The notes below the pieces were generated by a model. It had not been told where the DNA came from, did no database searches, and saw nothing but the letters and a program-made list of their open reading frames with translations. The translations under genes and the position numbers were made by a program. This document shows, piece by piece, positions 3,342 through 57,404 of a DNA stretch of 64,000 bases. Position 1 is the stretch's first letter, and each line of letters opens with the position of its first letter. The stretch is from Squalus acanthias (Eukaryota): contig CM059432.1 in the NCBI GenBank assembly GCA_030390025.1, positions 8,804,001 to 8,868,000 of the forward strand, written 5' to 3'.

Positions 3342-3568
3342 TCATGATGTGGAGATGCCGGCGTTGGACTGGGGTGGACAAAAATGAGAAGTCGCACAAC
3401 ACCAGGTTATAGTCCAACAGATTTATTTAATTTTACAAGCTTTCGGAGCTGTCGCTCCTTCGTCAAGTAAGTTGCTAACTTACCTGACGAAGGAGCGACA
3501 GCTCCGAAAGCTTGTAAAATTAAATAAATCTGTTGGACTATAACCTGGTGTTGTGCGACTTCTCATTT
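3342..3568. mobile_element. Penelope-like (family 1) fold-back insertion
   Basis: About 93-bp near-perfect inverted arms (3380-3570) plus a 38-nt unpaired tail; direct repeat TTGGATTAAGAGA at 3329-3341 and 3569-3581. Confidence 0.85.
3480..3517 (+). ncRNA. minimal type I hammerhead ribozyme motif (PLE-associated)
   Basis: TTAC-CTGACGA-A-GGAGC-GACA-GCTCC-GAA-AGCT-T-GTAA: core CUGANGA/GAAA, stem II GGAGC/GCTCC, stem I TTAC/GTAA, palindromic stem III. Confidence 0.75.
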
Positions 3569-4630
3569 TTGGATTAAGAGAGAGAGAGAGAAAAGAGCCC
3601 GAAAGAAAACATTAAAAAAATGTAATTTAAAATTTAAAAAAATCTCCAGCAACAATTAAAACCTGAAGGAATGAGTCTCCACAATTGTAATAGTAAATTT
3701 TCAGTGCCAGAGAGGTTGACTGGCAGTAATTAACACTTACCACATCGTTAAAAGGTTACTTAGACTTGAAATGACTTGACCTGTCTGTGGCGAGTTTAGT
3801 TCGTATCTACCGCGCACATACAGCAACTTCACGCCGTTCAATGCGTTTGAATGCGGAGCCAGACAGCGAGATGCCGTTTACCCGAAGCTAACGCCGGAGC
3901 GGTGCATCTCCGACAGCAACTTTACGATTTCCGTGTTTATTCACCCTCGTCGCTGTGGCATTTGCGCATAAATAACATCGAGCGCCGTTAGCCTCACCGT
4001 TATTTTGACAGCAAATTAATTGCCAAATGTGTACATAGCTTGACAGACGAGCAAACGGATTAGCGAGTGTTAGAAATCTTTACCATGAACAGCAACGTTT
4101 AAGGGACCATCAACATGACGAAGTGACTGAGAATTAATTTGAAAACAACTGCAAGAGAATCACCATGTGCTGTTACTAGCTCTTTAAGGTTTCAACAAAG
4201 ATTCCTCATTAGACTTCCCGCAGCACTAATTGATAAACTGAAAACTCCCACCTGCTGTAAATGCCTTTTGATCTTGCTGGGTTTAAAGGCTCCTTCTATA
4301 CTGGAACCATAGTGTGTTGCACCAGAATGAAAGGGCACAGAACAGATGGGCAGATGGCTCAACCTTTGTTTAACTGTTTGATTTATAACTGGCTTGATCT
4401 CCATGACAATCGCAAAACCATAAATGCAAATCTACTCTTCAGCAAAGCTGCCAAGAAAAATACTTAAAAGGCAAGACCAAGTCAATCTTCGTGAACATCA
4501 GGGTACAAAAAATCTGAGTTTCTTTCTGTGACAGGTATATCTAAAATAAAATAAAAATCAAATCAGAGCTGAACACTAGCGTTTAATAGTTGTCTCTCTC
4601 TCTTCAGAGACACTTGATTATAGTTACAAT

Positions 4631-5427
4631 GGGGTAGATTTTTGTGATGCTGTAACATGGGTGATAACGAGTCAGTAGCCCGCTTTATATCTCACCATTT
4701 TTATTATTATTTCAATTGAAAAAAGCGCCTTGGGATGTAGAGGAGACCAAACGCAGATTGGGTGACCGCTTTGCGGAACACCTCCACAAGCATGACCCCG
4801 AGCTTCCGGTCGCCTGTCACTTTAATTCTCCGCCCCACTCTGACCTCTCTGTCCTTGGCCTCCTACATTGTTCCAATGAAGCTCAACATAAGCTCGAGGA
4901 ACAGCACCTCATCTTTCGATTAGGCACTTTACAGCCTTCCGGACTCAACAATGAGTTCAACAATTTCAGACCATAACCTCTACCCCCATTTTTTCAGATG
5001 GCAGCTGTTGATGTTTCTGCCATTCCCATTTACACCTCCTCTAGACTCATCTTTTGTTTCTTTACTTGTCCCATTACCATCTCCTTTTGCTTTGTACAAT
5101 CATCCCTCTTGTCATTTAATCTCTCCTGCCTTCCACCCTATCACAGACCTTCCCTTTTGTTCTTTCCTCCCCCCATCCCTTTCCCTGTCCCTACACTTGC
5201 TTAAAACCTGTTACATCTCTAACTTTTTCGGTCCTGACGAAAGGTCGTCGACCGAAAACGTTGACTCTGTTTCTCTCTCCACAGATGCAGCCTGACCTGC
5301 TGAGTGTTCCCTATATAAATGCAAGTTTTTGTTGCTGAAGTCGATGGGAACACAAATCGGGAGAGATGTAAAACGGGCTGCCGAGTCAAGATTACCCGTG
5401 CTACACCACCACACCAAGATCTACCCC
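4631..5427. mobile_element. PIF/Harbinger-type MITE with nested Penelope fragment
   Basis: Termini GGGGTAGATTTT and AAGATCTACCCC; AAT duplicated at 4628-4630 and 5428-5430; the two ends are imperfect inverted repeats over about 80 bp. Confidence 0.7.
4739..5310 (+). mobile_element. Penelope-like element (family 2) 3' fragment: GIY-YIG endonuclease C-terminus, 3' UTR and hammerhead-like motif
   Basis: ETKRRLGDRFAEHL...PVACHFNSPPHS...EQHLIFRLGTLQPSGLN is the characteristic PLE GIY-YIG C-terminus; CTGACGAAAGGTCGTCGACCGAAAACGTTGAC near 5235. Confidence 0.9.
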
Positions 5428-5496
5428 AATCTATTACTGGAATTTGGAATAGAATTTCTTACTATTCGACTGAGGGTCACTTCTCGATCAAGTTGC

Positions 5497-6330
5497 AGTA
5501 GCGATTTTCTCAATGGGGAGCTTTTGGAGGCGGGGCTCCCACTTGTCGGGTTTCAGTCCCGCCTCCATCGATTTGTGGCCAACCCACGCTATTTTCCCTT
5601 GATTGACCTTGTTAAGCCCGCCCAGCGGGCTTCACAGGCCAATTAAGGGAAAGCCGGTTGCAGAGAACATCAATGTATGATGTTCCATCTGTCCAAAAAT
5701 TTTGACAGATGAATTGTCATCGTTTGACAGCTCTGTGAAGCTGTCAAACACTGACATTCTCTGTAGTTTGATGAGGTCTTGAATTCAAGACCTCATCAAA
5801 CCTCTTTCTTTTGTAGAAATGAGATGGTTGTTGCATTGGAGAATGCAACGGCCATCTGTCATCTCTACCGCGGAGGGTCCGAGACTCTCCGCATACCCAC
5901 CGCCTGAAGCCTGCAGGAAGAAACAAAGGTAAGTACACTTTTACTAACACTTTGCACTTACCTCAGATACTCACCTCTCCACACTTGCACCCATCACTTA
6001 CCTCAACAGCACACTTTTGCACCCCCCTCCCCCCCGCCCCCGACCCCTGCAGACCCAGGACTCGCCTCGCTGGCGGGTTTTGGAGCCTTCAGGAAGCCCG
6101 CACTTGTGAGGGCAAAATGGGGATAATCCTATTTTCTGCCTGTTAACTAACTGTTTTAATCCCTTCCCGCCTCCAAGGAGATGGGACCCGGCGTGGGTCG
6201 GCTACCCGCCTCCTGGCAAGATGGCACGGAGGCAGGTTGGGGGTGGGATGGGCACCCACCCCCAAATTCTGCCATTTTCCCGGCAGTCCCACCTCCATAC
6301 CCGCCTCCCCAGGGCTGGCAAGACCGCGCC
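5497..6330. mobile_element. non-autonomous DNA transposon (Harbinger-like), paralog of 54682-55494
   Basis: Both ends and internal blocks (e.g. TTTGACAGCTCTGTGAAGCTGTCAAACACTGAC) match 54682-55494 in reverse orientation. Confidence 0.65.
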
Positions 6331-6661
6331 CATGGAGTGCACTTGCAGTGGGATCATTAATGCCAGCCTCTCCTGTCACAAGTAAGAAAGACTCCCTCAG
6401 CACTGCACTGGAGTGGCAGCCCTAGATTTTGTGCGCAAATCCCTGGAGTGAGACTTGAACCCACAGCCTTCTGACTCAGAAACGAGAGTGCTGCCCACTG
6501 AGGAGCTCAAGGCTGCATCCATCTCTAATTGTGGGGAGAGGTGGGCCTTCTCCTTGAACCTCTACCGTCCTTGTGGTGATGGTGTCTCCAGATGTGTAAG
6601 CATGAATTCTTGAGAGGTTTTTTTTTGTGATAAATTTTAATCAGTAGCAAAATTAAAAGTG

Positions 6662-6819
6662 ATGTGGAGATGCCGGCGTTGGACTGGGGTGGACAAATGT
6701 GAGAAGTCGCACAACACCAGGTTATAGTCCAACACTTCACCTGATGAAGGAGCAGCGCTCCGAATGCTTGTGATTTCAAATAAAGCTGTTGGACTATAAC
6801 CTGGTGTTGTGCAACTTCT
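6662..6819. mobile_element. Penelope-like (family 1) asymmetric fold-back insertion
   Basis: Same tail and arm sequence as 3342; TSD CAAAATTAAAAGTG at 6648-6661 and 6820-6833; hammerhead-like CTGATGAAGGAGCAGCGCTCCGAAT. Confidence 0.85.
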
Positions 6820-7316
6820 CAAAATTAAAAGTGTTCACTTCAAGCCGCGCTCTCACCCTGGTTCGAGAGGGACTATGGCTTCGCACCAGAGTCCTCTGTG
6901 TAATCTGATTTAGATCAACTGTTTTCCCTTCTAATTATATGTAAACAACTCTCTTGGGTCTGCCAAGGCTGCCAGTTTACGGTAACTCAGGTGCTGTGAG
7001 CGCACACTTAGCTATCTCATTCTGTAGTACAATAAGCTCATCAGTGACATGCAGATTGGTCTGGCCCTGAAAAGCACCTCAAGCAAATTTCGATCAGTTT
7101 GCCTCGCGTTGAGCTGTTCCACTTGTGGCTCTCACGTTCATGCACCAGCTCCCTCAACAACAACAAACAACGCTGGCAGGGATTCAAAGTAGATGCGCGC
7201 ACGCTCTGGGGAGGAGGGGCTGGAGAGAGAACAGCAAAGTGGACAAGCACATCCCAAGGCATCGGCGGCGGGTTTTTTCTCAATAGAATAACTGCTTTGC
7301 AACAGGAGAATATGAA

Positions 7317-7850
7317 ATAGAACCATAGAAGATAGGAGCAGGTGTAGGCCATTCGGCCCCTCGAGTCTGCTCCGCCATTCGATGAGATCATGGCTGATCA
7401 TCCAAACTCAGTACCCTGTCCCTGCCTTCTCCCCATATCCCTTGATGCCTTTAGCTTTAAGAAATATATCTAACTCCTTCTTGAATATATTTAATGACTT
7501 GGCCTCAACTACCTTCTGTGGTAGAGAATTCCACAGGTTCACCACTCTCTGGGTGAAGAAATTCCTCCTCATCTCAGTCCTAAATGGCTTATCCCTTATC
7601 CTTAGACTGTGACCCCTGGTTCTGGACTCACCGACCATCAGGAACATTCTTCCTGCATCTAGTCTGTCTAGTCCTGTCAGAATTTTATATGTTTCGATGA
7701 GATCCCCTCTCATTCTTCTAAACTCCAGCGAGTATAAGCCCAATCGACCCAATCTCTCCTCATATGTCATTCCTGCCATCCCAGATATCAGCCTTGTGAA
7801 TCTTCGCTGAACTCCTTCCATGGCAAGAACATCCTTCCTCAGATAAGGTG
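7317..7850 (-). mobile_element. CR1 LINE 3' fragment
   Basis: ORF 7408-7866 (LERRRMRGDLIETYK-like, FFTQRVVNLWNSLP); same subfamily tail as 19322 and 30882. Confidence 0.95.
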
Positions 7851-7859
7851 CAGGACTTT

Positions 7860-10400: not shown

Positions 10401-12351
10401 GAAAATGGCCGACCCCTTATCCTGAGACTATGCCCCCTACCTCTAGACTCCCCGACCAGTGGAAACAACCTCTCAGCATCTATCCTGTCAATCCTCCTCA
10501 GGATCTTATATGTTTCAATGAGATCACCTCTCATTCTTCTAAACTCCAGAGAGTATAGGCCCAATCTACTTAAACTCTCCTCATAGGACAACCCTCTCAT
10601 CCCAGGAATCAATCTAGTGAACATTTGTTGCACCGCCTCCAAGGCAAGTATATCCTTCCTCAGATAAGGAGACCAAAACTGTGCACAGTACTCCAGGTGT
10701 GGTCTCCCCAAAATCCTGTACAATTATAGCAAGACTTCCTTACTCTTGTACTCCAACCCCCTTGCAATAAAGGCCAACATGCCATTTGCCTTCCTAAATT
10801 GCTTGCTGTACCTGCATGCTAACTCTCTGTGTTTCCTGTATGAAGACACCTAAATCTCTCTGAACACCAACGTTTAATAGTTTCTCACCATTTAAAAATA
10901 TTCTGGGGGAAAAATTCCTCCTCACAGCTTATTTTCCCACCTAGCTTTGTATCGTCAGCAAACTTGGATACATTACACTCGGTCCCTTCATCTAGGTCAT
11001 TAATATAGATTGTAAATAGCTGAGGCCCCAGCGCTGGTCCTTGCAGCACTCCACTAGTTACAGCCTGCCAACCCGAAAAAGACCCGTTTATCCCTACTCT
11101 CTGTTTTCTGTCCATTAACCAATCCTGTATCCATGCTACTATATTACCCCTAACCCCATGAGCCCTTATCTTGTGTAACAACCTTTTATGTGGCACCTCA
11201 TCGAATGCCTTTTGGAAATCAAAATATACTACATCCACTGGTTCCCCTTTATCTACCCTGCTAGTTACATCCTCAAAAAACTCTACAATAAATTTGTCAA
11301 ACATGATTTACCTTTCATGAAACCATGTTGACTCTGTCTAATCATATTATGATTTTATAAGTACCCTGTTACCACTTCCTTAGTAATGGATTCCAGCATT
11401 TTCCCGACGACTGATGTCAGGCTAACTGGCTTGTAGTTCCCTGTTTTCTCTCTCCCTCCTTTCTTGAATAGCAGGGTTACATTTGCGACCTTCCAATCCC
11501 CTGGGACCGTTCCAGAATCTAAGGAATTTTGGAAGATCACAATGCATCCTCTATCTATGCAGCCATCTCTTTTGGAACCCCAGGATGTAGGCTATCAGAT
11601 CCAGGAGATTTGTCGGCTTTTAGTCCCATTAGTTTCTCAAGTACTATTTCTCTACTGATATTAATTACTTTAAGTTCCTCACTCTCATTAGCACCTTGGT
11701 TACCCACTATTTTTGGTATGCTTTTTGTGTCTTCTACTCTGAAGACAGATAAAAGGGCTGAATTTTCCATGGTGGTAGCTGGCGCGATCGGTGGCGGGTC
11801 GGGTGGGAAAGTTGATTTTTTTTTTTAACAGCGGGTCAGGAACCCGCTGTCATCTCGCTCCCACGCGCCTTTCCCACAGGCGCATCTGTCAGCATGGAGC
11901 TGACCCGACCTGTAGCGGCGGGGGACCCAATTGAAGTCATTATGAGGTACTTTACAGGCACTTAACAGCCTTTCCCTATCACTACTTTTTAAATTTCCCT
12001 GCATAGCCACGGGATTCACACAGCTCGGGAACCGCGTCTGTCAACCTGAGGCGGGAGTTCAGTGGCCATTGCTCCAGCTGATTACTTGACAGCATGGAAA
12101 ACAAATCAAAATAAAAACATGTTGATTACATCAGCTAACAGATTGATGGAGATTCTGTTCTACTTGAAAAGCTACTGGTAAATGTTAATTCAGAAATTCC
12201 TGAAGGGATGTAAGTGCTACCCTGGGTGGTGAGGGAAATATATTTTTCACTGGCCATTCTTGGCTGTTGCCTTCCAACTCAACAGTAATTGCAGTGAATT
12301 GATCTGCACTATAAAAGATGACATATATATCAATTAAATAAATGTTTGTAA

Positions 12352-12447
12352 TAAAAACAGAAAATGCTGAAAATACTCAGCAGGTCAGGTTGCATTTGTA
12401 GAGAGAGAAACAGAATTAACGTTTCAGGTCGATGACACTTCGTCAGA
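12352..12447 (-). mobile_element. Penelope-like family 2 terminal fragment with hammerhead-like motif
   Basis: Reverse complement reads CTGACGAAGTGTCATCGACCTGAAACGTTAATT followed by the family 2 tail. Confidence 0.75.
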
Positions 12448-12832
12448 ATAAATGTATGTGTTGTTTCTGGTCAGGTTTTTCTCACAGTATACTGTGATTG
12501 TCCAGTTACACATTAAATCAAGTCATCAACCGTAACAATTTCATTCTCATCACTCATTCCACTGGTTCAATTTGCTTTCAGTCCCTGAACATGACTAGTT
12601 TAATTTTTCAGTCTGAGACTTTAGGGCGAATTTCTGCGGAGGTTCTCTCACTTGTCCATTGTTAACTTCAACCGAAGAGCTGCAGAAATCCCAGAAACAC
12701 ATTGTAAGCACCACTTACACTGTTTGTCAGGGATTCCACAGCTGCTCCGCTGAACTTGCATAAGATTGTAAATCCACCCCTTTACAATTACATTTAAAAT
12801 CTGCTTAATTTTATATATTACCTATACACACA

Positions 12833-17295: not shown

Positions 17296-17489
17296 TGACA
17301 ATCACTGCACTTTGCTGGAGAAATGGCCCTGCTTTTATCGGGAGAAGATGCTGTAGTTTCCATCTTGAGGTCCAAGGCTTTGACATCCTTCTTAAAGTGT
17401 GGTGCTCAGACTTGAACAGAATACTATAGCTGAGACCTAATCAGTGATTTATAAAGGCTTAGCATAACTTCCTTGTTTTTGTACTCTAT

Positions 17490-18412: not shown

Positions 18413-18430
18413 TATGCCTCTATTTATAAA

Positions 18431-18711
18431 AGTGAGAAGTCGCACAACACCAGGTTATAGTCCAACAGTTTTATTTGAAATCACAAGCTTTCGGAGCGGC
18501 TGCTCCTTCGTCAGGTGAAGTAAAGGAATACAAATCGACAAAGCATATATAGATAGAGAACAATGCCTGTGTAACGTACAATGGCAGATGACTACATTTA
18601 ATCCTCCTGACTGCCTTTTGTCACACCTCGGCAGATAAACAATCAGGTCAGCCAGGAAGGCACCACATCAAAGACATAGCAAAATACAACTGAGACAATC
18701 TCCGCATCATG
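18431..18711 (-). mobile_element. Penelope-like (family 1) insertion, one arm plus tail remnant
   Basis: TSD GCCTCTATTTATAAA at 18416-18430 and 18712-18726; hammerhead motif on the minus strand at about 18481-18520. Confidence 0.8.
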
Positions 18712-19321
18712 GCCTCTATTTATAAAGCCCAGGATCCTGTACGCTTTTTTAACAGCCTCATCAACATGTCCCGCCACCTTTTGCTAGAAATACCGACCAC
18801 AGAAAAAAAAATCATGAACATATTTCAATGTCACTACACATAGCAACCGGAGCAATTCTTCTCCTTTGATCTCGCGATTGAGTTATGTTACCGTCCACTG
18901 CACACCTTAATGTCAATTCTGTGCTGCAACATCTGGGAACGATTTTCATTTATCAAACATACTTAGCTCATTAACGAAGTGTGACACACTTACCTGGTAA
19001 GATACTCATGAGTCAATTAAATTTTCCTAATTAATTCATGGTGAACATTTTCTCTAACATTTAGCCGGCAACTCACACTCTATAACATGGTGTTAATCTT
19101 TGGAATGACACTGCTCAAAGCTGAGGTAGGTTGCTCTGACAGGATGGACCGCTCTGCTAATTGATGGGACAATATAAAGGACAAATGTTCATAGCTTTCA
19201 GATAAGAAGAGAAAGGATTTGCAGTTATAACGTGCTTTTCACATCCTCGGGATGTTGCAAAGAACCTCACAGCAAATTCATTACTTTTGAAGCATAAGAG
19301 ACTGTTTCATAGAATTGCATA

Positions 19322-21219: not shown

Positions 21220-23195
21220 GGGGGAGAAATTCATGTTAGCCGGTAAAGTTGCTGGTGTCACCGGCAACTGGAGTTAATGGCCGCTGAAAATGGCCGCAAC
21301 GCTAATGGAGCAGAATTCATTTGGGGGGATAGAGATCGTTGGCGCAGTGCTGCCATGCAACGCCATCCTGGTGGTATTACTGGAGGCATCCGACCGGAAG
21401 TTCCTGTCACATTCGACGTTCAAGCCTTGCACAACCTCTGGGAGTGAGGCTGTGGCGCTCGCAAGGAATTGTGGGCAATGAAGAGGGCTGTGAATTAAAG
21501 GGGCCATGCACACTGAAGCAATACAAATTAAAATGAAGTGAAACATTGCAGTTTTCAGCCCTTTCTGCCTTTCAATAAAATATTTAACATTAAAAAGAGT
21601 TCCCAAATGTGAATATTCAGCTCTTAAAGCTGAATTCCCTTCCTAACCTCAAAAAATGGGAAAACTGCCTCAGCACTAACGTAAATGGCTCAGCGAGCCA
21701 GGGAAGGGGCACCGAGGGTCTCAAACGCAGCACTCCAGCTTTCTGCAGGGAGTCAACACTGCAAGAGCGGCCCTCTACCCACAGGGGCCAGGAGGCCCTC
21801 CAGAAAGAACGATGTGGGAGTACATCACTAAGGCCATCACTGTCAGCAGTGTCGCCCCCACCACCTGGCTCCAGTGCCCTAAGAAGCTTCATGATCTCAG
21901 ACCACTGGTCAAGGTCAGTGAATGTATCTTCAAAAGCCGTCTCCTACCAACTGCACCACTACCCTCACACACTGCTCAATGCACAACCCCCAATCACTCA
22001 CCTACCAGCAATCTGCACCAATGCTGCGGCACATCTCCCATTCCTAGCCTTACCTTATCCCCTTGGAGGAGACGGTGCAGCCCATTCTTGGCAGGGGCAT
22101 GGTTGAGCCCTTGGCCAGCAGCAAGGCTGAAAGGATACAAGATGCTGGTATCCTCCTATGTTTTCCTTCTCCTGGCATGCACCTCCAGGCTTCCTGTCCT
22201 CCTGTCAGCACAAATCCACCCTTGTGCCTTCCTCATTTCACACACCCAAGAAATGCAGCCTGCCCAACCAGTGGGTCAACAAGAAATGCAGCCTGTCCAA
22301 CCAGTGGGTCAACAAGAAATGCAGCCTGCCCAACCAGTGGGTCAACAAGAAATGCAGCCTGTCCAGCCAGTGGGTCAACAAGAAGAGGCAGCCTGCCCAG
22401 CCAGTGGGTCAACAAGAAGAGGCAGCCTGCCCAGCCAGTGGGTCAACAAGAAATGCAGCCTGCCCAACCAGTGGGACCGCAGGTGGATGATTCCATCCCG
22501 GATATGCCGACCACAAAGGGGCTGTCTGGGATGCATCTTTCCATCTGATTCCTCCTCTTCAGCTTCCTCCTCTTCTGCGTCTTCCTCTTCCCTCTGCAAG
22601 CAGATGCTGTAAATGTGAAATGACAGCACAAGATGCTGCAAATACTCAGTTGGTCAGGCAGCATGTCGACCTGAGACGTAAACTCCACGGATATTTTGTG
22701 ACCTGCTGAGTATTTGCAGCATGTTCTGTCTTTTCAAATGTGTTCACTTACCATCCGAGCCCTTGCAAGCATCCAGCAGCACTCCCAAAACACGTAAAAA
22801 GCCTTTTACATCTATTGCAGCAAGCCACCACTTGAATAAAATTAAAAAACTGTCCAAACCCTTCCATTCACACTTACCTGATTGATGTGTGTGTCCCTTT
22901 AACAGCTGCAGATATCGGCCCTGTCAGCGTCTGTCAGCCTGCTTGCACGGCAAGTTAACCTGCCGTGCTCAGGACCCAGTGCTGACTTGAACGTTAGGGT
23001 TGAAGTTCGCGTAGGTGACGTCACCACGCCGCCATTTTTTTTCAGGGCGCTGCCAGTTACCAACAGCGCGAAGGGGGCAACCAATGTGGTGGTCGCCGCA
23101 GGGGCCGCCTCCAGCTGGTGCAAGAGTGGCAGCCGCCAATTTTTTCAGGGATCGCTGGCGCTACCAGGTGGCGGTAAGGACAGCAATTTCTCGCC
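21220..23195. mobile_element. internally deleted Harbinger element with convergent Myb-like and transposase remnants
   Basis: Termini GGGGGAGAAATT and AATTTCTCGCCC; plus strand WEYITKAITVSSVAPTTWLQCPKKLHDL (Myb/SANT-like); minus strand acidic EEEDAEEEEAEEEESDG...GRHIRDGIIHLR resembles a Harbinger transposase C-terminus. Confidence 0.7.
22248..22475. repeat. 33/32-bp tandem repeat, about 7 units
   Basis: Unit AAGAAATGCAGCCTGCCCAACCAGTGGGTCAAC, with a variant beginning AAGAAGAGGCAG. Confidence 0.95.
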
Positions 23196-39730: not shown

Positions 39731-39950
39731 CCAACACAGGTCAGTATATCACAGCTCCTGATTCTTCCCTCTGTGGCGTAAATCCCTGTGAGTAGCGTCC
39801 GTTTGTCTCTTCAACCTTGTTCATCTTCACTGCTTTCAGTTTCCCTTCTCGTGTTTGATCAGGTATCTGCTCCTTTTGTTCTTTCATCCCCCTCCCCCTT
39901 TTCCCAGCTTTATACTTGCTTTAAATCTATTTCATTTCCTGCTTTTTTCC

Positions 39951-39987
39951 AGTTCTGACGAAAGGTCTTCGACCTGAAACGTTAACT
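39951..39987 (+). ncRNA. minimal type I hammerhead ribozyme motif (PLE family 2)
   Basis: AGTT-CTGACGA-A-AGGTC-TTCG-ACCT-GAA-ACGT-T-AACT, within a PLE 3' UTR fragment at about 39760-40052. Confidence 0.75.
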
Positions 39988-40926
39988 CTGTTTCTCTCTC
40001 CACGGATGCTGCCTGGCCTGCTGAGTTTTTCCAGCGTTTTCTGTTGTTATTTTAGCGTCATTCAAAGGTTACACAGGTCTGAGAATCAGTTCTATAGTCT
40101 TGTATCCCTAACTCCAACGGCTGCTCTTCTTGAGTGCGGCTTCCCTTACACCCTCAATGTCTTCTAAAGTACCTCGCAGCTTTAGGCTCTTACTCGCACG
40201 GGTGATGACTTTGTGAAGCTACTGCCTACACTGTGAACTAATGACTCCAAAAATATACTCCATTCCAAATGTGCCGCCAACCCTCTGGTACTTCACCCAA
40301 GCAGTTGCTCTTCAAGTGTGGGACATGACTTTGCAACTTAATTTTACCACCGTGTTCCCCCAGATTTGCTGTAAGTAACTAGATGCGTGGAAATGGTGCG
40401 TTGGGGGGCGGGGGGCGGGATGGGGTTCTGAATAGGGTGGTCATCCATCACGCTGGATTCCTGCTCCCTTGTGGGTGGCGTCGTTCTACTCCAGGCACAT
40501 CTAGCGAATAGAAAGAGCTACAGTAGTTAATAGTCACGGTCCTGGACAAGCAACTTCGAGGTTGCCAGTTCGAATTCTGCTTTGGTAAGTTGTCAAGTTG
40601 AATTCAGTGAAGCTGTACATTGCGTCAGAAAAATAACCATGAAAACTCGTGGGTTGCTGTAAAAACCCAACTATCGGCCTTCGGGGAAGGGAAACCTGCC
40701 CGCCCTGCCTGGTCCGGTCTACGCGTGACTCCAGTCTCACACTGTGCGACTGACTCTTGATACCCGCACGGGAATCTGGAGATTTTTCCCCACTTCTTTT
40801 AGCCTTGTGACACTAGCCCATTATCGTACCCCCTACCTCAGTTATTCCTGTGCAGACCAGCGTTTCAAGCAGAGATCCTCCTGGACTGTATGGCTTACTG
40901 CCACATCACATGGAGTATTTATCACT

Positions 40927-41376: not shown

Positions 41377-42389
41377 ATTTATCACTGAACCATCTCAAGT
41401 TGACTCTCCTCAGATTCTGTAACAGAAATGCAGATGTGACGTTATGATCAATTCACTTTTTAAGTTACAATTATGTCTAACCAATACATACATATATGCA
41501 CAAGCTGAGCTTTACGTGGCTAAGGGTCAGACTGTAAACAAGGGCACCTTGCTCTTAACTGTGTTACAAATGGCGAAAACATTGTGTCCTTCCTCCATAG
41601 GAATTGTTTGATGATTTAATGTTGAGATTTCACATTGGAAGCAGAATGCTCACACGGGAGCATTAATATAGGTGAGCATAACCTTAACCCCGAGTCAGAT
41701 TCAGTTAAACTGATTGAATGTAAAATAAAGTGGAGGAAAAAGTCTGACGCACTGTTGCATCCCTGTGCTGTCGTGCGCCCAGCCAGACGTAATGAACAAA
41801 TAGCTATACCCGACCCGCTGTCAGTCAAATGAAATTTCACTGCCGACCCCCCACCGATCCCTTGGTCCTAAGTTGCTCAAGACCTGCAATTGCCATTCAG
41901 AGCTTGGGCATCGCAAGCAAACCAAATTTAGGAATCCGGGTCCGAAATGAAGCCTGCGCTCATTGCGGGCAGCCACAAGGGCCGCCTAAAAAAACAGGCC
42001 CCGACCAATTTAGCAGTGACCTGGACTCCTGTGCAGATCGGTTATTGTTGCTTTCGTATTAGGCCCGTAGATCAAGCAGAATTATGTTAAATTACCCCAA
42101 TGATTCCAAATCTCATAGCAATGAAGAATCCTCTACTCTTCCTGCAACATCACAAGAGGCTCAGAGGCTTTTGACTCAATGTCAGCGATCTAATTATAGT
42201 GGGGGGGGGAGGGAGAAACTACCTTGCATCTGACACATTTTCTATCTACCAAATCAATTGCAGCATCATAGATTTTCATAGAATCTACAGCACAGAAACA
42301 GGCCAATCGGCCTAACTGGTCCGTGCCGGTATTTATGTTCCCCACCAGCCTCCTCCCACCCCTCTCCATCTCACCCTATCATCATTATG

Positions 42390-42612
42390 ATGTGGAGATG
42401 CCGGCGTTGGACTGGGGTGGACAAAAATGAGAAGTCGCACAACACCAGGTTATAGTCCAACAGATTTATTTAAAATTGCAAGCTTTTGGAGCTCTGCTCC
42501 TTCGTCAGGTAGAGTTGCAACTCTACCTGAGGAAGGGGCTATAGCTCCGAAAGCTTGTAATTTTAAATAAATCTGTTGGACTATAACCTGGTGTTGTGCG
42601 ACTTCTCATTTT
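42390..42612. mobile_element. Penelope-like (family 1) fold-back insertion
   Basis: Inverted arms centred on GAGTTGCAACTC; TSD TATCATCATTATG at 42377-42389 and 42613-42625. Confidence 0.85.
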
Positions 42613-42696
42613 TATCATCATTATGGCATCGATGGGTTTATAGTTTGAACAAAACAGTCTAGACTTGATCCCACCCCACTTGCAAACTTGCAAAAC

Positions 42697-48050: not shown

Positions 48051-48224
48051 TAAAGACAGACTTCGGGTGTGAGACCTTGACATCTTCAATGATAAAATTG
48101 CAGTCGGAGGGAACAGGGCGGGGTGGGGGGGGGTTGGGGGGTGGGGGAGTGGGCAGAGGATAAGTCTGCTGCTCCATTTTAACTGGGCCCCCCACCTGGT
48201 TTCCACCTTACAAGGATCCTTAAA

Positions 48225-48360
48225 ATTCTGACGAAAGGTCATCGACCTGAAATGCTAACTCTCTCTCTCCACACATGCTAACCTGACCTGCATTTCCTGT
48301 GTTTCCAGCATTTTCTGTTTTTATTTCATAGTTCCAGCATCCGTGGTATTTTGCTTTTGT
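48225..48360 (+). mobile_element. Penelope-like family 2 terminus with hammerhead-like motif and tail
   Basis: CTGACGAAAGGTCATCGACCTGAAA followed by the same tail as 57300-57404. Confidence 0.75.
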
Positions 48361-49055
48361 TCCTTAAAGTATGTCATCTTCTCCCCCAGTTTCTTGCAGT
48401 TACTATACACGATATTCGTTATTGCTTCCTGTCAGGCACCTGTTACCTCCAAAGAGATGGTGCCCTTGGAGGTCCTAATTGAGGAAATCATCCTTGCATC
48501 TGGATATTAGGAGAGGTGACCAAATCTTGGTCAAAGAGGTAAGTTTTAAGGAGCGTCTTAAAGGAGGAAAGAGAGGCGGAGAGGTTTAGGGAGGGAATTC
48601 CAGAGCTCAGGGCCCAGGCAGCTGAAGGCAAGGCCACCAATGGGGGAGCGATGAAAATTGGGACTGTCCAAGAGGCCAGAATTGGAGGAGCAACCTCACT
48701 TCACCAGTTATCGAAAGAGGGGATCGGGGGCAGCATTACTATACACTTGTCCACAGAATTCACTTCCATGACTTGACTTTAGCTTTAACATTGCTTGCTT
48801 TTGGCCTGAGACTTCCCCCCCCCGCCCCTCCCCATTTCACCCAATGTTGTCTTTAGAAAGGCTTGCAAGAACTTAAATAAAAAAACTATTTTCAGTCTTT
48901 CTGAAAGTTTGAAGACTTTTCACCCCCACCCTCCCTCCCGTCCCCTGATGCAGCCACTTGTCTTTAAGTAGCCACAGCCCTTTAAATTTGAATGTCAAAT
49001 GGAGAATGGAGCTGCCGGCGTAGTTTATACATCCCAGGTATTGATCTATAGGAGA

Positions 49056-49761: not shown

Positions 49762-49949
49762 ATAGGAGTGTGTGAGAGAGAATGTCAGGAGCTTTATTTG
49801 CAAGAGTTAATCGGGTGTTGTATGGCCAAGTTGCAGGTGTGTCAGTGAAAGAACTCCCCCTCTCCCTATTTGCAATAATAGATGTCCTTCCGAAAAATAA
49901 ATATTTTTCTCAAAAACAAAAAGGAATGAAGCCAATCGATTCACAGGGA

Positions 49950-50188
49950 CCATGATGCGGAGATGCCGGTGTTGGACTGGGGTGGACAAAAGTGAGAAGT
50001 CGCACAACACCAGGTTATAGTCCAACAGTTTTATTTGAAATCACAAGCTTTCAGAGCTGCTGCTCCTTCGTCAGGTGAAGGACTTCACCTTCAGACTTCA
50101 CCTGACGAAGGAGCAGCCGCTCCGAAAGCTTGTGATTTCAAATAAAACTGTTGGACTATAACCTGGTGTTGTGCGACTTCTCACTTTT
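49950..50188. mobile_element. Penelope-like (family 1) fold-back insertion
   Basis: Inverted arms plus tail; TSD GATTCACAGGGA at 49938-49949 and 50189-50200; hammerhead motif at 50097-50135 (+) with a mirror copy on the minus strand. Confidence 0.87.
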
Positions 50189-50227
50189 GATTCACAGGGA
50201 GATTAGTGTAGTGTAAAAAATTAGGTG

Positions 50228-50600: not shown

Positions 50601-51680
50601 TTTGAAGTGTATCGCAAGGGGCCCAACCGCACAGGATATTTTCAGCACCCATCCCGTTTTGCGCGGGGCAATTTTAAAACTGCGACACTGCAGGCAGGAT
50701 GTGTGTATTCTGTATGGGCATGTAACCAGGCTACGCCAAACTAGCAATTTAAATGCATGAGGTTCACTGCAGTCAGAGGCATTTAGGAGTTAATGAAGTG
50801 TTCCAATCTCAACCAGGTGTAACTATTGTATATTTCTTTTATTATTCGTTGAATTATCATAACAATCACACTCTTTCTATGCTGTATTTCCACAGATTTG
50901 TGTGTGCGTGCACGCATACAAGAGAAACAAAGTGGGGGCGGGGGGGGGGAAATTGGTTTTGCGCCAGTAACCGGCGTTAAGTGGGTTGGGTGAGTCTGGT
51001 ACGTATGCCGCACTGATCGCTCCAAATTAGGCCGCGGGCTTCATTTCCATATCACCGTCGAGCCGTGCGCACCAATCGAGTGTCCCGATGCAGCTCGCTG
51101 GTCAGGGCCTTTCTCAGAAAATTGTCGTTCCCGGACGCCAGTTAGTCCCGGGAGGAGGTGGGGTGGGGGTGGGGCAGGGGGGACGGTGGAGGGTGAACAA
51201 GAAGGAGGGGGTGTGGGCGTGGCAGTACTGCTGTGGAGCCGAGGGGAGCATTCTGTCTCCACCTGGCTCCACAATGAAGTAAGTGGAAACAAAGAAGCTC
51301 ACCGGTTCCTTGGCCTCCTCCAGCGGCCCTTTAAGGACCTCTGCTTCAGGGTTTGCCGTAGACCCAGAAAACCTGAGCGCAGCGCATCACCAACCAGTTT
51401 CTTCCACGTTTGACATCGTTGTCTCAAAACATGCCACCCCCAACCCCCACCACCACCGCCCCCCCCCCCCCACCATTAGCATATTCAAGGTGCCCAACGC
51501 ACATTTTAGGCGGGCGTCATGGATACTCAGATTTTAACTGCTGCCAAAATCGCCGGCCTGCACGCTACCGGGGTGGATCAGTCGCGGGAAATCACGCCCA
51601 GATCTTGCTCCCAAAAAGAGGTGCAATAGGACCAAATGTCCCCCCTCCCCACCGTGTAATGATATAGCATAAACACCTTT

Positions 51681-53615
51681 CATAGAATCATAGAATCATA
51701 GAATGGTTACAGCACAGAAGGAGGCCATTCAGCCCGTGACGGCTCTCTACAAGAGCACTTCAGCCAGTCCCACTCCCCCCATCCTTTCCCCGTAGTCCTG
51801 CAAATTTTTTTCCTTCAGGTACTTAGCCAATTCCCTTTTGAAAGCCACGAATGAATCTGCCTCCACCACCCTTTCAGGCAGTGAATTCTAGATCCTAACC
51901 ACTCGCTGCGTAAAAAAGTTTTTCCTCATGTCGCCTTTGCTTCTTCTGCCAATCACCTTAAATCTGTGTCCTCTGGTTCTCGACCCTTCCGCCAATGGGA
52001 ACAGTTTCTCTCTATCTACTCTGTCCAGACCCCTCATGATTTTGGACACCTCTATCAAATCTCCTCTCAACCTTCTCTGTTCTAAGGAGAACAATCCCAG
52101 CTTCTCCAGTCTACCCACATAACTGAAGTCCCTCATCCCTGGAACCATTCTTGTAAATCTTTTCTGCATCCTCTCTAAGGCCTTCACATCCTTCCTAAAG
52201 TACGGTGCCCAGAATTGGACACAATACTCCAGTTGAGGCCCAACCAGTGTTTTATAAAGGTTCCACAACACCAGGTTATAGTCCAACAGTTTTATTTGAA
52301 ATCACAAGCTTTCGGAGCTTACTACTCCTTCGTCGGGTGAAGTAAAGAGATACAGAATCGCCAAAGCATTCTGTATCTCTTTACTTCACCCGACGAAGGA
52401 GTAGTAAGCTCCGAAAGCTTGTGATTTCAAATAAAACTGTTGGACTATAACCTGGTGTTGTGCGACCTCTCAATTTTGTCCACCCCAGTCCAACACCGGC
52501 ATCTCCGCATTATAAAGGTTCATCATAACTTCCTTGCTTTTGTACTCTATGCCTCTATTTATGAAGCCCAGTAACCCATATGCTTTTTTAACAGCTTTCT
52601 CAACCTGCCCTGCCACCTTCAATGATTTGTGCACATATACCCCCAGGTCTCTCTGTTCATGCACCCCCTTTAGGATTGTACCCTTTAGTTTATATTGCCT
52701 CTCCTCATTCTTCCTACCAAAATCTAGCACTTTGCACTTTTCTGCATTAAACTTCATCTGCCACGTGTCCGCCCATTCCACCAGCCTGTCTATGTCTTCT
52801 TGAAGTCTATCACTATCCTCCTCACTGTTCACTATACTTCCAAGTTTTGTGTCATCTGCAAATTTTGAAATTGTGCCCAGTACACCCAAGTCGAAGTCAT
52901 TAATATATATCAAGAAAAGCAGTGGTCCTAGTACCGACCCCTGGGGAACACCACTGTATACCTTCCTCTAGTCTGAAAAACAACCGTTCACCACTACTCT
53001 CTGTTTCCTGTCAATTAGCCAATTTCATATCCATCCCTTTTATTCCATGGGCTTCAACTTTGCTGGCAAGCCTATTATGTGGCACTTTAATAAACGCCTT
53101 TTGGAAGTCCATGTACACACTGTCAACCGCATTGCCCTCATCAACCCTCTCTGTTACCTCATCAAAAAACTCGATCAAGTTAGTTAAACACGATTTGCCT
53201 TTAACAAATCCATGCTGGCTTTCCTCAATTAATCCACACTTGTCCAAGTGGCTTGTCCAGGATTATTGTTTCTAAAAGCTTCCCCTACTACCAAGGTTAA
53301 ACTGACTGGTCTGTAGTTGCTGGGTTTCTCCTTACACCCTTTTTTGAACAAGGGTGTAACATTTGCAATTCTCCAGTCCTCTGGCACCAGCCCCGTATCC
53401 AAGGAGGATTGGAAGATTATGGCCAGTACCTCCGCAATTTCCACCTTTACTTCCCTCAGCATCCTAGGATGCATCCCATTCAGTCCTGGTGACCTATCTA
53501 CTTTAAGTACAGCCAGCCTTTCTAGTATCTCCTCTTATTCAATTTTTATCCCATCCAGTATCTCAACTACCTTCTCTTCCACTATGACTTTGGCAGCATC
53601 TTCTTCCTTGGCAAA
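51681..53615 (-). mobile_element. 5'-truncated CR1 LINE with nested Penelope hairpin
   Basis: RT pieces at 52470-52913, 53011-53247 and 53229-53474; (ATTCTATG)n tail. Confidence 0.93.
52264..52509. mobile_element. Penelope-like (family 1) fold-back insertion, opposite orientation
   Basis: About 100-bp inverted arms, with the tail on the right; TSD TTATAAAGGTTC at 52252-52263 and 52510-52521. Confidence 0.88.
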
Positions 53616-53617
53616 GG

Positions 53618-54020
53618 ATGGGTGAAACTAGAACTAGGGGGCATAATCTTAGAATAAGGGGCTGCTCTTTCAAAACTGAGATGAGGAGAAACTTCTTCAC
53701 TCAGAGGGTAGTAGGTCTGTGGAATTTGCTGCCCCAGGAAGCTACATCATTAAATAAATTTAAAACAGAAATAGAAGTAAAGGGAATTAGGGGTTACGGG
53801 GAGCGGGCAGGAAATTGGACATGAGGCTGAGTTCGGATCAGTCAAGGCCCTGTGGGTGGCGGAGTGGGCCCAGGGGCTGAGTGGCCGGGTCCTGCTCCTA
53901 CTTCTTGTGTTCTTTAGATTTGAGGTTAGGATCAGATCAGCCATGATCTTATTGAATGGCGGAGCAGGCTCGAGGGGCCAATTGGCCTACTCCTGCTCTT
54001 ATTTCTTATGTTCTTATGTA
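53618..54020 (+). mobile_element. CR1 3' fragment (subfamily of 34042-35885)
   Basis: GETRTRGHNLRIRGCSFKTEMRR...; duplicated 3' UTR and TTCTTATG tail. Confidence 0.9.
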
Positions 54021-54681
54021 AGTACTCATTTAGTAACTTAGCCATGCCCAATGTAAGGTTTCCAAAATTTGCAGATCCCCAAAACCTAAGGAAAAAGGAT
54101 TTTGGAACTACCTCAGAGTGATAAAAATGCATTTGGGCCTAACCTATGAGACTGTAAGACCAAAAACCAAGTTTTGCCATTTTAAAAGCATGTCTGGGCC
54201 TGTGAAGGGAGAAAAGGCTGTGAAGGAAGTTGGGTTCGACCTCTGCAAAAGCAGTTTTGGGTATTGCAGTTAAATTGCATTGTCTGGGGAATCGGGATGA
54301 CCTCACTCAAGCCCCAGCAAGCATTAACAAAGGAGACCAAAACTGTGCACAGTACTCCAGGTGTGGTCTCACCAAGGCCCTGTACAGTTGTAGCAAGACT
54401 TCCTTACTCTTATACTCCAACCCCTTTGCAATAAAGGCCAACATGCCATTTGCCTTCCTTATTGCTTGCTGTACCTGCATGTTAGCTTTCTGTGTTTCTT
54501 GCACGAGGACACCCAAATCATTCTGAACACCAACATTTAAAAGTTTCTCACCATTTAAAAAGTATTCTGTTTTTCTATTCTTCCTACCAAAATGAATAAC
54601 TTCACATTTCCCTACATTATACTCCATCTGCCACCTTACTGCCCACTCACTGAGACTATCTATATCCCTTTGCAGACTCGA

Positions 54682-55494
54682 TGGGGGGAATTTTGCCAGC
54701 CCTGGGGAGGTGGGTTTGGAGGTGGGACTGCCGAGAAAATGGCAGAAACAGGGAGCGGCTACTGAAGCCGCCCCCAACCCGTCTCCATGCCATCTTCCCG
54801 GGAGGCGAGTCCCCGACTCACGCAGGGACCCGTCTCCTCAAGGCGGGAAGGGGATTACAGCCACTTAACTGCCTGTTAACAGGTAGTTAACAGGCAGTTA
54901 AGAGGCTTATCCCCATTTTACCCCTTCAAGTGCGGGCTTCCCGACGTTGGGAAACCCCGCCAGGGTCAGCGAGGCAAGCAGTGAGTCTGCAGGGGTGAGA
55001 GGATCGAAAAGTCCGCTGTGGAGGTGAGTGATGGGTGCAAGTGTGGAGAGGTAAGTATGGGAGGTGATTGAAAAGTGTTAGAAAAAGTTTACTTACCTTT
55101 GTTTCTTTCTGCAGGCTTCAACCCTTGGGGATCCGGAGGCTCCTCACGTCCACGGCAGAGATGACAGAGATGTTTTCTGCTCAGGGAAGAGGTTTGGTGA
55201 GTCTTGAGTACAAGGACTCACCAAAGAACAGAGAACGTCAGTGTTTGACAGCTTCACAGAGCTGTCAAATGATGACAATTAATCTGTCAAAAATTTTTGA
55301 CTGATGAAACTTCATACGCTGACGTTCTCTGTCACCGGCTTTCCCTTAATTGGCCTGCTAAGCCCGCAGGGCGGGCTTAACAAGATGAATCAAGGTAAAA
55401 TAGTGTGGGTTGGCCGGACGTCGTTGGGGGCGGGACTGAAACCCGACAACCAGCAGTCCCGCCCCCAACGCGCCCCCATTGATAAAATCCAGCT
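54682..55494. mobile_element. Harbinger-like non-autonomous element inserted in CR1 RT
   Basis: Termini GGGGGGAATTTT and AAAATCCAGCTC; splits CR1 TGCAGACTC|TTTGTG; paralog at 5497-6330. Confidence 0.7.
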
Positions 55495-57182
55495 CTTTGT
55501 GTTCTCCTCACAGCTTACTGTCACACCTAGCTTTGTATCATCAGCAAACTTGGATATATTACACTTGGTCCCTTCATCTAGGCCATTGATATAGATTGTA
55601 AATAGCTGAGGCCCCAACACTGATCCTTGTGGCACCCCACCAGTTACAGCCTGCCAACCTGAAAAAGATCCATTTCTCCCTACTCTCTGTTTTCTGTCCA
55701 TTAACCAATCCTTTATCCATGCTACTATATTACCCCCAACCCCATGAGCCCTAATCTTGTGTAGTAACCTTTCATGTGGCACCTTATCGAATGCCTTTTG
55801 GAAATCCAAATATATTACATCCACTGGTTCCCCTTTATCTACTCTGTTAGTTACATCCTCAAAAAACTCTAATATATTTGTCAAACACGATTTCCCTTTC
55901 ATAAAACCATGTTGACTCTGCCTAATCATGTTATGATTTTCTAAGTGCTCTGATACCACTTGCTTAACAATGGATTCCAGTATTTTCCCGATGACCGATG
56001 TCAGGCTAACGGGCCTGTAGTTCCCTGTTTTCTCTCTCCCAGCTTTCCTGAATAGCAGTGTTACATTTGCAACCTTCCAATCCGCTGGGGCCATTCTAGA
56101 ATCTAGGGAATTTTGGAAGATCAAAACCAATGCATCCACCATCTCTTCAGCCACCTCTTTTAGAACCCTAAGATGTAGGCCGTCAGGTCCAGGGGATTTG
56201 TCGGCTTTTAGTCCCATTAGTTTCTCTAGTACTTTTTCTCTACTTATATTAATTACGTTAAGTTCCTCACCCTCATTAGACCCTTGGTTCGCCACCATTT
56301 TTGGTATGCTTTTTGTGTCTTCTACTGCGAAGACAGATACAAAATATTTGTTTAACGTTTCTGCCATTTCTTTATTCCCCATAATAATTTCTCCTGTCTC
56401 AGCCTCTAAGGGACCAATGTTTACTTTTGCTACTCTCTTCCTTTTTACATACTTGTAGAAGCTCTTACAATCTGCTTTTATATTTCTTGCTAGTTTTCTC
56501 TCGTATTCTATTTTTTCCCTTTTTATCAATTTTTTGGTCATCCTTTGCTGGTTTCTGAAACTCTCCCAATCCTCAGGCTTACTACTATACTTCACAACAT
56601 TATAAGCTTCTTCTTTCAATCTAATGCTATCCTTAACTTCTTTTGTTAGCCACGGTCGGATCACTTTTCCTGTGGAGTTTTTGTTTCTCAATAGAATGTA
56701 TTTTTGTTGAGAATTATGAAATATTTCTTTAAATGCTAGCCACTGGTTATCTACCGCCATACTTTATAATCTATTTTTCCAATCTACCATAGCCAACTCG
56801 CCCCTCATACCTATGTAGTTGTCTTTATTTAAGTTTAAGACTCTAGTTTCGGACTTAGACAAGTCACTCTCAAACTTAATGTGAAATTCTATCATATTAT
56901 GATCACTCTACCCCAGAGGATCCTTTACTATGAGATTGCTAATTAACCCTGTCTCATGACACAATACAAGATCTAAAATTAGGTTAGGTTGATTTGGCTA
57001 TGATAAATTGACCCTTAGTGTTAGGGGGGGATTAATATGTGGGGTTACGGGGATAGGATAGGAAGGGATATGTTAGGGGGAATTAAATACGTGGGATTAT
57101 GGGGATAGGGTGGGATATGTGTTGGTGCAGGCTCGATGGGGATTCTGTGTGAGAAAGCAGGGACAGGGTACTGGATTTGGAT

Positions 57183-57404
57183 TAACAACAGAAAACGCTG
57201 GAAAAACTCAGCAGGCCAGGCAGCATCCGTGGAGAGAGAAAGAGAGTTAACGTTTCAGGTCGATGACCTTTCATCTGATGAAAGGTCATCGACCTGAAAC
57301 GTTAACTCTCTTTCTCTCTCCACGGATGCTGCCTGGCCTGCTGAGTTTTTCCAGCGTTTTCTGTTGTTATTTCAGATTTCCAGCATCCGCAGTATTTTGC
57401 TATC
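57183..57404. mobile_element. Penelope-like (family 2) fold-back insertion
   Basis: About 90-bp perfect inverted arms plus a 35-nt tail; TSD GTACTGGATTTGGAT at 57168-57182 and 57405-57419; CTGATGAAAGGTCATCGACCTGAAACGTT at the centre. Confidence 0.88.

What the first reader, a model, noticed from the sequence alone, without database searches (positions are those of the whole stretch)
3342..57404. Recurrent ~150-280 bp Penelope fold-back insertions with a fixed architecture (hairpin + one-sided 35-40 nt tail + 12-15 bp TSD) in two families
Seen: seven insertions (3342, 6662, 18431, 42390, 49950 and 52264 from family 1; 57183 from family 2), each bounded by a clean 12-15 bp direct repeat. Five are long palindromes with a 35-40 nt extension on one side only. 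The palindrome centre differs in every copy, while the tail-less arm ends at nearly the same position. Both arms of one copy share copy-specific variants (stem-II loop GACA at 3342; AGTAA at 52264). Established: PLEs have pseudo-LTRs, can insert with inverted termini, and carry hammerheads. Inference: these are independent extreme 5'-truncation products rather than MITE copies. Reverse transcription would start internally, about 35-40 nt from the RNA 3' end, and fold back or re-prime to yield the inverted arm with the tail. The result is a high-copy class of compact hairpins that could form dsRNA or cruciforms and carries ribozyme motifs on both strands. About one per 9 kb here gives a rich record of the PLE integration mechanism.
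Basis: partly seen in the sequence, partly recalled or inferred. Interest (0 to 1): 0.72.

Follow-up and report, generated by a model that had tools for sequence, protein, structure and literature searches.

The report
Penelope retroelement mirror-image mini insertions
These short hairpin-shaped insertions are end pieces of Penelope-type jumping genes laid down in a known "inverted copy plus tail" pattern; the new hint is that their centres cluster at a predicted transcription start, as if two copying enzymes ran off the start of one short RNA and their products were joined head to head.

Summary
The seven insertions are real. All have 12-15 bp flanking repeats, and for two of them other repeat copies in the window show the empty site with one copy. 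Both families carry a minimal hammerhead motif. A family 2 copy sits 260 nt behind a GIY-YIG endonuclease C-terminus; family 1's link to an ORF is only inferred. Inverted end, one-sided 30-40 nt tail, TSD and two internal RT starts are already published for Penelope-like elements (PLEs), and this scan reported similar hairpins in two other shark genomes. In 7 of 12 insertions the longer arm begins within -3..+3 nt of a predicted Inr that has a TATA-like box at about -30 in both families. A relative's contigs join +1 to +1 with one extra G. The tail-bearing arm is never more than 3 nt longer than the other (8 pairs). Best model: one capped pLTR transcript is primed from both nicks at two internal sites, both cDNAs run off or stall, and they are end-joined. 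The TSS is predicted, not measured, and no genome was available. New variant of a known kind; interest 0.4.

The parts
3329..3581 (.). Family 1 (subfamily b) palindromic insertion 3342-3568 with 13-bp TSD (3329-3341, 3569-3581); 40-nt tail 3342-3381 on the minus arm; centre about 3474-3476
6648..6833 (.). Family 1 asymmetric insertion 6662-6819, 14-bp TSD; short tail-bearing arm (minus, starts about +54), tail-less arm (plus) starts exactly at predicted +1 (6734)
   Evidence: contig of relative X6 stops aligning at 6820
18416..18726 (.). Family 1 insertion 18431-18711, 15-bp TSD; long tail-less arm on minus strand, then last 14 nt of the tail (18698-18711). 18547-18697 has no other copy in the window and is taken as upstream pLTR sequence (unproven)
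18521..18551 (-). Predicted family 1 core promoter: TATA box 18545-18551 (-30) and Inr with +1 A at 18521, 7 nt before hammerhead C3
   Evidence: motif prediction only
42377..42625 (.). Family 1 (subfamily b) palindromic insertion 42390-42612, 13-bp repeat of which 3 nt also match the tail end; 34-nt tail; same centre as 3342; arms differ at 6 positions
49938..50200 (.). Family 1 palindromic insertion 49950-50188, 12-bp TSD; 38-nt tail; centre with a short duplicated arm start, each time preceded by G; hammerhead core intact on both strands
52252..52521 (.). Family 1 palindromic insertion 52264-52509, 12-bp TSD, inside a LINE; arms identical over 95 nt, start at -25 and -14; hammerhead core mutated in both arms; 47-nt extension
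57168..57419 (.). Family 2 palindromic insertion 57183-57404, 15-bp TSD; 35-nt tail 57370-57404; centre in the hammerhead core; 9-bp stem between tail and a site 49 nt after C3
4737..5311 (+). 5'-truncated family 2 PLE: GIY-YIG endonuclease C-terminus (about 4737-4976), 3' UTR, TATA-like box at 5201, hammerhead at 5234
12337..12455 (-). Family 2 single tail-less arm with 9-bp direct repeat; starts at about +2
22596..22740 (.). Decayed family 2 inverted pair; short tail-bearing arm (minus), longer tail-less arm (plus); no clear TSD
39872..40055 (+). Family 2 single arm with about 80 nt upstream: TATA-like box 39920-39926 (-31), Inr +1 at 39951, intact minimal hammerhead at 39955
48217..48368 (+). 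Family 2 single tail-bearing arm with 8-bp direct repeat; starts at about +2

Best explanation
These are dead-on-arrival insertion products of endonuclease-bearing Penelope-like retrotransposons. Shown: TSD-flanked head-to-head copies of the pLTR end, a minimal type I hammerhead, a one-sided tail, and for family 2 a GIY-YIG ORF upstream. Inferred steps: (1) the pLTR promoter (TATA-like box at about -30, Inr just before hammerhead stem I) makes a capped RNA. (2) The PLE protein cuts both strands of an AT-rich target 12-15 nt apart or somewhat less. (3) Each 3' end primes cDNA on the same RNA at one of two internal sites, about +90-100 (tail-less end) and +126-134 (tail end), which bracket one strand of a 9-bp stem. 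(4) Because these sites lie close to the RNA 5' end, the leading cDNA runs off at +1, like a retroviral strong-stop cDNA, sometimes adding a cap-derived base. The trailing tail-bearing cDNA stops at or before the same point. (5) The two cDNA 3' ends are joined by 0-2 nt microhomology or a short templated insert and filled in, giving a 150-280 bp hairpin with TSD. Longer arms come from read-through RNAs.
For: TSDs 7 of 7 against 8 of 1500 null pairs. Paralogous empty sites with one repeat copy: 3 for 57183, 2 for 52264. GIY-YIG C-terminus 260 nt upstream of a family 2 hammerhead; best tblastn E 7e-17; relatives are RT+GIY-YIG proteins. Hammerhead stem I covaries between subfamilies (TCAC/GTGA against TTAC/GTAA). 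Longer arm starts within -3..+3 of predicted +1 in 7 of 12 insertions (P about 1e-3 to 1e-6 under uniform truncation). TATA-like box plus Inr at this spacing occurs 15 times in 128,000 positions and sits at this spot in both families. Run X6 has a joint 18521 to 6734, that is +1 to +1, with one G between, at depth 768 against 26-42 for single-copy contigs; an extra G from the cap is described for full-length L1 insertions (PMC11702581). The tail-bearing arm is never more than 3 nt longer in 8 pairs; the tail-less arm is 11 nt or more longer in 4. Element-target microhomology of 1-3 nt at 5 of 7 tail-less ends. ATT or AAT in 6 of 7 TSDs, background 0.32, matching PAc's ATT preference. PAc cleaves and extends both strands, is modelled as a dimer, and its two RT starts bracket the tail (PMC11167929). 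A 9-bp tail stem is present in both families at the same offset (29 and 18 of 5000 shuffles).
Against: The TSS is a motif prediction made after seeing the clustering, and the TATA-like definition was widened to fit family 2; no RNA 5'-end data. The family 1 TATA box is seen in one copy only (18431), whose upstream part has no second copy in the window. The X6 joint was seen before the hypothesis was formed, so it is no blind test, and it also fits copying of one master hairpin. For family 2 the same spot reads as a splice acceptor, and D. virilis Penelope has a TATA-less promoter with an intron ending at helix I. 5 of 12 insertions do not start near +1. The arms of 42390 differ at 6 positions, and 49950 is not closer to its partner than to 18431. 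No PLE ORF was found next to family 1 and no PLE RT in the window. Only 12 insertions were examined; no genome is held.
Confidence: 0.6

Rival explanations
1. One primary tail-less cDNA folds back on itself and copies itself; a second short priming supplies only the tail. 2013.
For: It predicts tail-less arm at least as long as the tail arm (8 of 8 within 3 nt or longer), identical arms (52264, 57183), short palindromic centres (3342, 42390) and the duplicated start at 49950. Self-priming is proposed in PMC3846280.
Against: It still needs a second priming on RNA for the tail. Loop-outs of about 55 nt (6662) and more than 250 nt (18431) with only 1-2 nt of microhomology are large for a snap-back. 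It does not by itself explain why centres sit at +1.
Confidence: 0.25
2. Some hairpins with a fixed centre are themselves copied as non-autonomous units, from a master hairpin mobilised in trans by the PLE protein or as a MITE.
For: 3342 and 42390 share the centre; one centre junction has about 20 times single-copy depth in run X6.
Against: Outer ends and TSDs vary from copy to copy; the tail breaks terminal symmetry; copy-specific variants are shared by both arms in 3342 and 52264; the hairpin lacks the upstream TATA-like box; single arms start at the same place without any hairpin (12345, 48227).
Confidence: 0.1
3. The arms come from two different RNAs, or RT stalls at the hammerhead or at a splice site; arm similarity is due to later gene conversion within the palindrome.
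For: 42390 arms have different loop II sequences; family 2 starts follow a pyrimidine tract and CAG; minimal hammerheads are thought to dimerise (PMC4209133).
Against: No shared upstream exon is seen in the short family 2 arms; family 1 has no AG at this place; ends lie just after the helix is passed, not before it; none of 19 arms starts at the hammerhead cleavage site.
Confidence: 0.15

Closest known systems
Canonical EN+ Penelope-like element insertions with inverted pLTR and 30-40 bp tail (Adineta vaga Pen2a, PMC3846280; Craig et al. 2021, PMC8557442; passages read)
   Same: Head-to-head inverted pLTR, one-sided tail, variable TSD, palindromes at the junction, TATA plus Inr-like motif in the pLTR.
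   Different: Here both arms are only about 15-270 nt and no ORF is included; TSDs are 12-15 bp against 8-10 bp in Adineta; centres cluster at the predicted start site. That link was not found in the searches.
PAc (Poseidon of Anolis carolinensis) internal RT initiation (PMC11167929; main text read)
   Same: Two RT start sites bracketing the tail, a stem-loop downstream of a hammerhead, both strands extended, ATT-type AT-rich targets, no ends at the hammerhead cut site.
   Different: In PAc the ORF starts at stem II and the RT starts lie in the ORF; here the arms have stops in all three frames. Family 2 relatives carry the CX2-5CxxC linker of Neptune/Nematis, not Poseidon. The read parts do not treat inverted joins.
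L1 twin priming and cap-G at full-length 5' junctions (PMC11702581; passages read)
   Same: Both target ends prime on one RNA, TSD preserved, inversion junction resolved by end joining with microhomology, extra G at complete 5' ends.
   Different: L1's two cDNAs copy adjacent segments; here both copy the same segment, which yields a palindrome.
Minimal hammerheads of metazoan PLEs (PMC4209133) and non-LTR retrozymes (bioRxiv 10.64898/2026.07.22.740005)
   Same: Type I minimal hammerhead with palindromic positions 15.2-16.2; pairs on opposite strands 100-700 bp apart were already noted in Schistosoma.
   Different: No tandem arrays of these units in the window, and no arm starts at the cleavage site.

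Membership tests
EN+ Penelope-like element (family 2) | C-terminal GIY-YIG endonuclease ORF upstream of the terminal repeat | tested here: met
   4737-4961 matches PLE-type proteins, best E 7e-17, 50 hit rows from 81 queried proteins; the 84-aa fragment alone hits 0 Pfam families; relatives hit PF01541, 1 of 5 above the curated cut-off.
EN+ Penelope-like element (family 1) | C-terminal GIY-YIG endonuclease ORF upstream of the terminal repeat | tested here: inconclusive
   No ORF remnant next to any family 1 copy; the tail peptide search gave one spurious repetitive hit; motif scans of three contig collections gave 0.
EN+ Penelope-like element | Telomerase-related RT in the same ORF | tested here: inconclusive
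   Not present in the window. Relatives of the endonuclease fragment are 740-1100 aa proteins, most with PF00078; no tree was built.
EN+ Penelope-like element | Minimal type I hammerhead in the pLTR | tested here: met
   Core, 5-bp stem II, palindromic AGCU/ACGU box and 3-4 bp stem I with covariation; intact in 6 of 16 arms scored. Rfam 0 hits. Cleavage not tested.
EN+ Penelope-like element | Inverted 5' copy and one-sided 30-40 nt tail | tested here: met
   Tails of 34-40 nt in 5 of 6 measured insertions, 47 nt in one.
EN+ Penelope-like element | Variable TSD in AT-rich target | tested here: met
   12-15 bp, 69% AT against 53% for the window, ATT/AAT in 6 of 7; paralogous empty sites for 2 of 9 sites tested.
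EN+ Penelope-like element | Full-length partial-tandem pLTR-ORF-pLTR source copies | not testable with these tools
   No genome held.
Neptune/Nematis clade | CX2-5CxxC linker before GIY-YIG | tested here: inconclusive
   Present in the close relative P0002 (59% identity); the window fragment starts after it.
MITE | Terminal inverted repeats at both very ends, fixed ends and fixed short TSD | tested here: not met
   One-sided tail, ragged ends, TSD 12-15 bp. The definition is from PMC8969392 (passage) and general knowledge.
Non-LTR retrozyme | Head-to-tail tandem units each with a hammerhead | tested here: not met
   None of the 8 TRF rows covers these elements; copies are single or inverted.

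The most novel reading that the evidence does not exclude
PLEs make a strong-stop-like product. On RNA started at the pLTR promoter, a protein dimer primes from both target nicks at two sites 90-135 nt from the cap; both cDNAs run to the RNA 5' end and are joined head to head. The most common PLE footprint in cartilaginous fishes would then be a full copy of the RNA's first 100-135 nt, not a failed truncation. The centres would map the element's start site and cap, and the length bias would show the order of priming.
Probability: 0.45. Interest if true: 0.62.

Novelty: new variant of a known kind. Interest (0 to 1): 0.4.

Why it matters
How PLEs form their inverted ends is still open: PMC8557442 names it as a task, and PMC11167929 leaves the steps after priming unvalidated. 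If the centres mark the capped 5' end, this very abundant class of genomic junctions becomes a direct test between twin priming on one RNA and fold-back self-priming, by arm-length bias, cap-G frequency and sharing of RT errors. It also warns annotators that these hairpins look like MITEs or miRNA precursors but are PLE by-products. No host function is indicated.

Tried and rejected
No whole genome is held, so genome-wide tabulation could not be run. Rfam at gathering score: 0 hits. Family 1 motif scans gave 0 in metagenome, genome and viral contigs. The family 2 motif gave 2 metagenome loci, both chance matches in coding-like sequence with no other similarity to the window. Pfam on the window's endonuclease fragment: 0 families. 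A 30-aa reading of the family 1 tail gave one hit, a repetitive 4818-aa protein, rejected. Arm translations did not match the N-termini of the PLE proteins. No RNA holder listed. Laying contigs at 88% likeness was flooded by repeats: 15 joints were shown and 17,306 not, so no direct empty-site joint was displayed. Only hints remain: an X6 contig stops aligning at 6820 with 94 letters left, and an X9 contig at 18713 with 80 left; those letters were not shown. Paralog empty-site test: negative or uninformative for 7 of 9 sites. Hammerhead cleavage as the source of arm ends rejected: 0 of 19 arms start at the cut site. A 20-nt family 2 match at 60931 was left out of all counts. PMC12602865 held none of the six terms searched. 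Supplement figures and the GenBank file of PMC11167929 could not be read and may bear on the PAc start site and inverted copies. Subscription papers such as Arkhipova 2006 and Repbase reports were not searchable.
Full report
Setting. The window is repeat-rich vertebrate DNA (47% GC). The named protein relatives of its PLE fragment come from skate, devil ray and sevengill shark, so a cartilaginous fish is likely. No genome is held, so all counts rest on 12 insertions in the window plus contigs of four public runs.

Observation. All 7 listed insertions have exact flanking repeats of 12-15 bp; 8 of 1500 random boundary pairs reach that length. For 57183 three paralogous LINE copies, and for 52264 two, carry the repeat once with both flanks adjacent, so these two are true duplications; 7 of 9 sites tested gave no such paralog. 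Contigs of two relatives stop aligning at the start of the right repeat at 6820 (X6) and 18713 (X9) and go on with other letters, while a contig of the closest organism (X1) starts inside the 6662 arm. This hints at empty sites but the letters were not shown. Summed depth in the bins that hold arms is 10^5 or more in all 4 runs, against 3-42 for single-copy contigs; this shows a very abundant family but is no copy number. Five long palindromes and their tails are confirmed. 6662 is lopsided, and 18431 is one long arm plus 14 nt of tail. Five further family 2 copies were found.

Identity. Each arm, read outward, has CUGANGA, one unpaired A, a 5-bp stem II, GAAA, a palindromic AGCU or ACGU, and a 3-4 bp stem I that covaries between subfamilies. 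This matches the minimal hammerhead of metazoan PLEs (PMC4209133, parts 1-2 of 4 read). Rfam gave 0 hits. Only 6 of 16 arms scored are intact, and only 49950 is intact on both strands. The family 2 copy at 5234 follows, after a 260-nt UTR, the C-terminus of a GIY-YIG endonuclease. Its relatives (11 of 60 candidates; then 85 of 3112) are mostly RT plus GIY-YIG-type proteins, and P0002 carries the CX2-5CxxC linker that marks Neptune/Nematis (PMC8557442 passages). Family 1 has no ORF in the window and no long match to family 2 (best local match 12 nt). Its PLE identity is inferred from the same architecture.

What is already known. An inverted, 5'-truncated pLTR, a 30-40 bp tail on one end and a TSD are the standard PLE insertion (PMC8557442 and PMC3846280, passages and Discussion; PMC8969392 passage). 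Hammerhead pairs on opposite strands 100-700 bp apart were noted in Schistosoma. In vitro, PAc cleaves and extends both strands, prefers ATT, and starts RT at two internal sites that bracket the tail (PMC11167929, parts 1-2 of 4). Earlier notes of this scan describe similar hairpins in two other shark genomes; they are unchecked AI notes, and my reading was written before I saw them.

Geometry shared by the two families. Counting from a predicted +1, hammerhead C3 is at +7 (family 1) or +4 (family 2). Tail-less ends are at about +87-94 (one at +79) and +94-104; full tails end at +126-134. In both families 9 nt of the tail are complementary to a site 48-49 nt after C3 (29 and 18 of 5000 shuffles). 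The letters of the PAc supplementary figure contain a comparable 7-nt pair about 37 nt apart (figure text, order uncertain). In runs X1 and X3, 526 and 353 loose ends with long flanks lie at 12350, the family 2 tail-less end, which fits a fixed start site genome-wide. Element-target microhomology at tail-less ends is 3, 2, 3, 1, 1, 0, 0 nt. Six of 7 TSDs contain ATT or AAT against a background of 0.32.

Centres are not random. The longer arm starts within -3..+3 of one position in 7 of 12 insertions (3342, 6662, 42390, 49950, 57183, 48227, 12345); the others are 18431, 52264, 22600, 39955 and 5234. By arm it is 11 of 19 within -3..+7 (the offsets of 3342, 42390 and 57183L were read by eye because these subfamilies differ from the ruler). 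Under uniform truncation over 100-300 nt this has P of about 1e-3 to 1e-6; a decaying null would be less extreme. The copies that reach further upstream show a TATA box at -30 with an Inr (18431) and a TTTAAA-type box at -31 with an Inr (39955); 5234 has a similar box at -29. This pairing occurs 15 times in 128,000 positions, but the motif was defined after the fact. Run X6 holds a joint from 18521 to 6734, +1 to +1, with one G between, at about 20 times single-copy depth; 49950 also has G before its arm start. An extra G from the cap marks full-length L1 5' junctions (PMC11702581 passages). A TATA plus Inr-like motif is reported in an Adineta pLTR, whereas D. virilis Penelope has a TATA-less internal promoter and an intron there (PMC2377424 passages). 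For family 2 a splice-acceptor reading remains possible.

Order of events. In 8 inverted pairs the tail-bearing arm is never more than 3 nt longer. Four pairs are near ties, and in four the tail-less arm is longer by 11 nt or more (6662, 52264, 22600, and 18431 if its middle is element sequence). Fold-back of the tail-bearing cDNA cannot supply sequence it never copied. Two primings on one RNA, with the downstream (tail) enzyme trailing, predict ties and this bias, and also shared variants: 1 against 6 differences for 3342, 0 against 5 for 52264, identical arms for 57183. 42390 (6 against 6) and 49950 (2 against 0) do not discriminate, and gene conversion within palindromes cannot be excluded. 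Fold-back of the tail-less cDNA plus a second priming for the tail fits nearly as well. No arm starts at the hammerhead cut site, as in PAc.

Novelty. The architecture and internal initiation are known. Nine literature searches listed no paper whose title or abstract start links PLE palindrome centres to the start site or describes this compact class in sharks. In one search none of the listed PLE papers contained 'strong-stop'. Subscription papers and Repbase were not covered. The retrozyme preprint was read in part 1 of 5 and passages. Verdict: a real and abundant PLE by-product, a new variant of a known kind. The run-off reading is testable and would be useful, but it rests on 12 insertions and predicted promoter motifs. 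Interest 0.4.

Noticed in passing
window:18676-18687: The putative family 1 upstream sequence shares an exact 12-mer with the end of the family 2 tail (57392-57403); E about 0.5 against the window, so possibly chance.
   Followed up: partly
window:18416-18430 and 52252-52263: Two independent family 1 insertions hit paralogous copies of the same LINE stretch about 40 nt apart (the 18431 target matches 52551), both in sites with TTATAAA.
   Followed up: partly
window:60931-60950: A 20-nt exact match to the family 2 tail-less end sits where two LINE-type ORF fragments on opposite strands meet.
   Followed up: no
window:22247-22475: 33-bp tandem repeat (6.9 copies, 94%) inside a 310-codon stop-free frame with QEMQP repeats.
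   Followed up: no
window:37392-38120: GC-rich 19-bp minisatellite, about 37 copies.
   Followed up: no
window:30703-36760 and 51679-63159: Dense nested LINE fragments with RT and endonuclease ORFs, CR1-like by recall; about 31 of 64 kb have a second copy within the window.
   Followed up: no
window:6737 and 22664: The two mid-length tail-bearing arms, one per family, both stop at the 5' edge of the 9-bp tail stem, as if the cDNA folded on itself there.
   Followed up: partly
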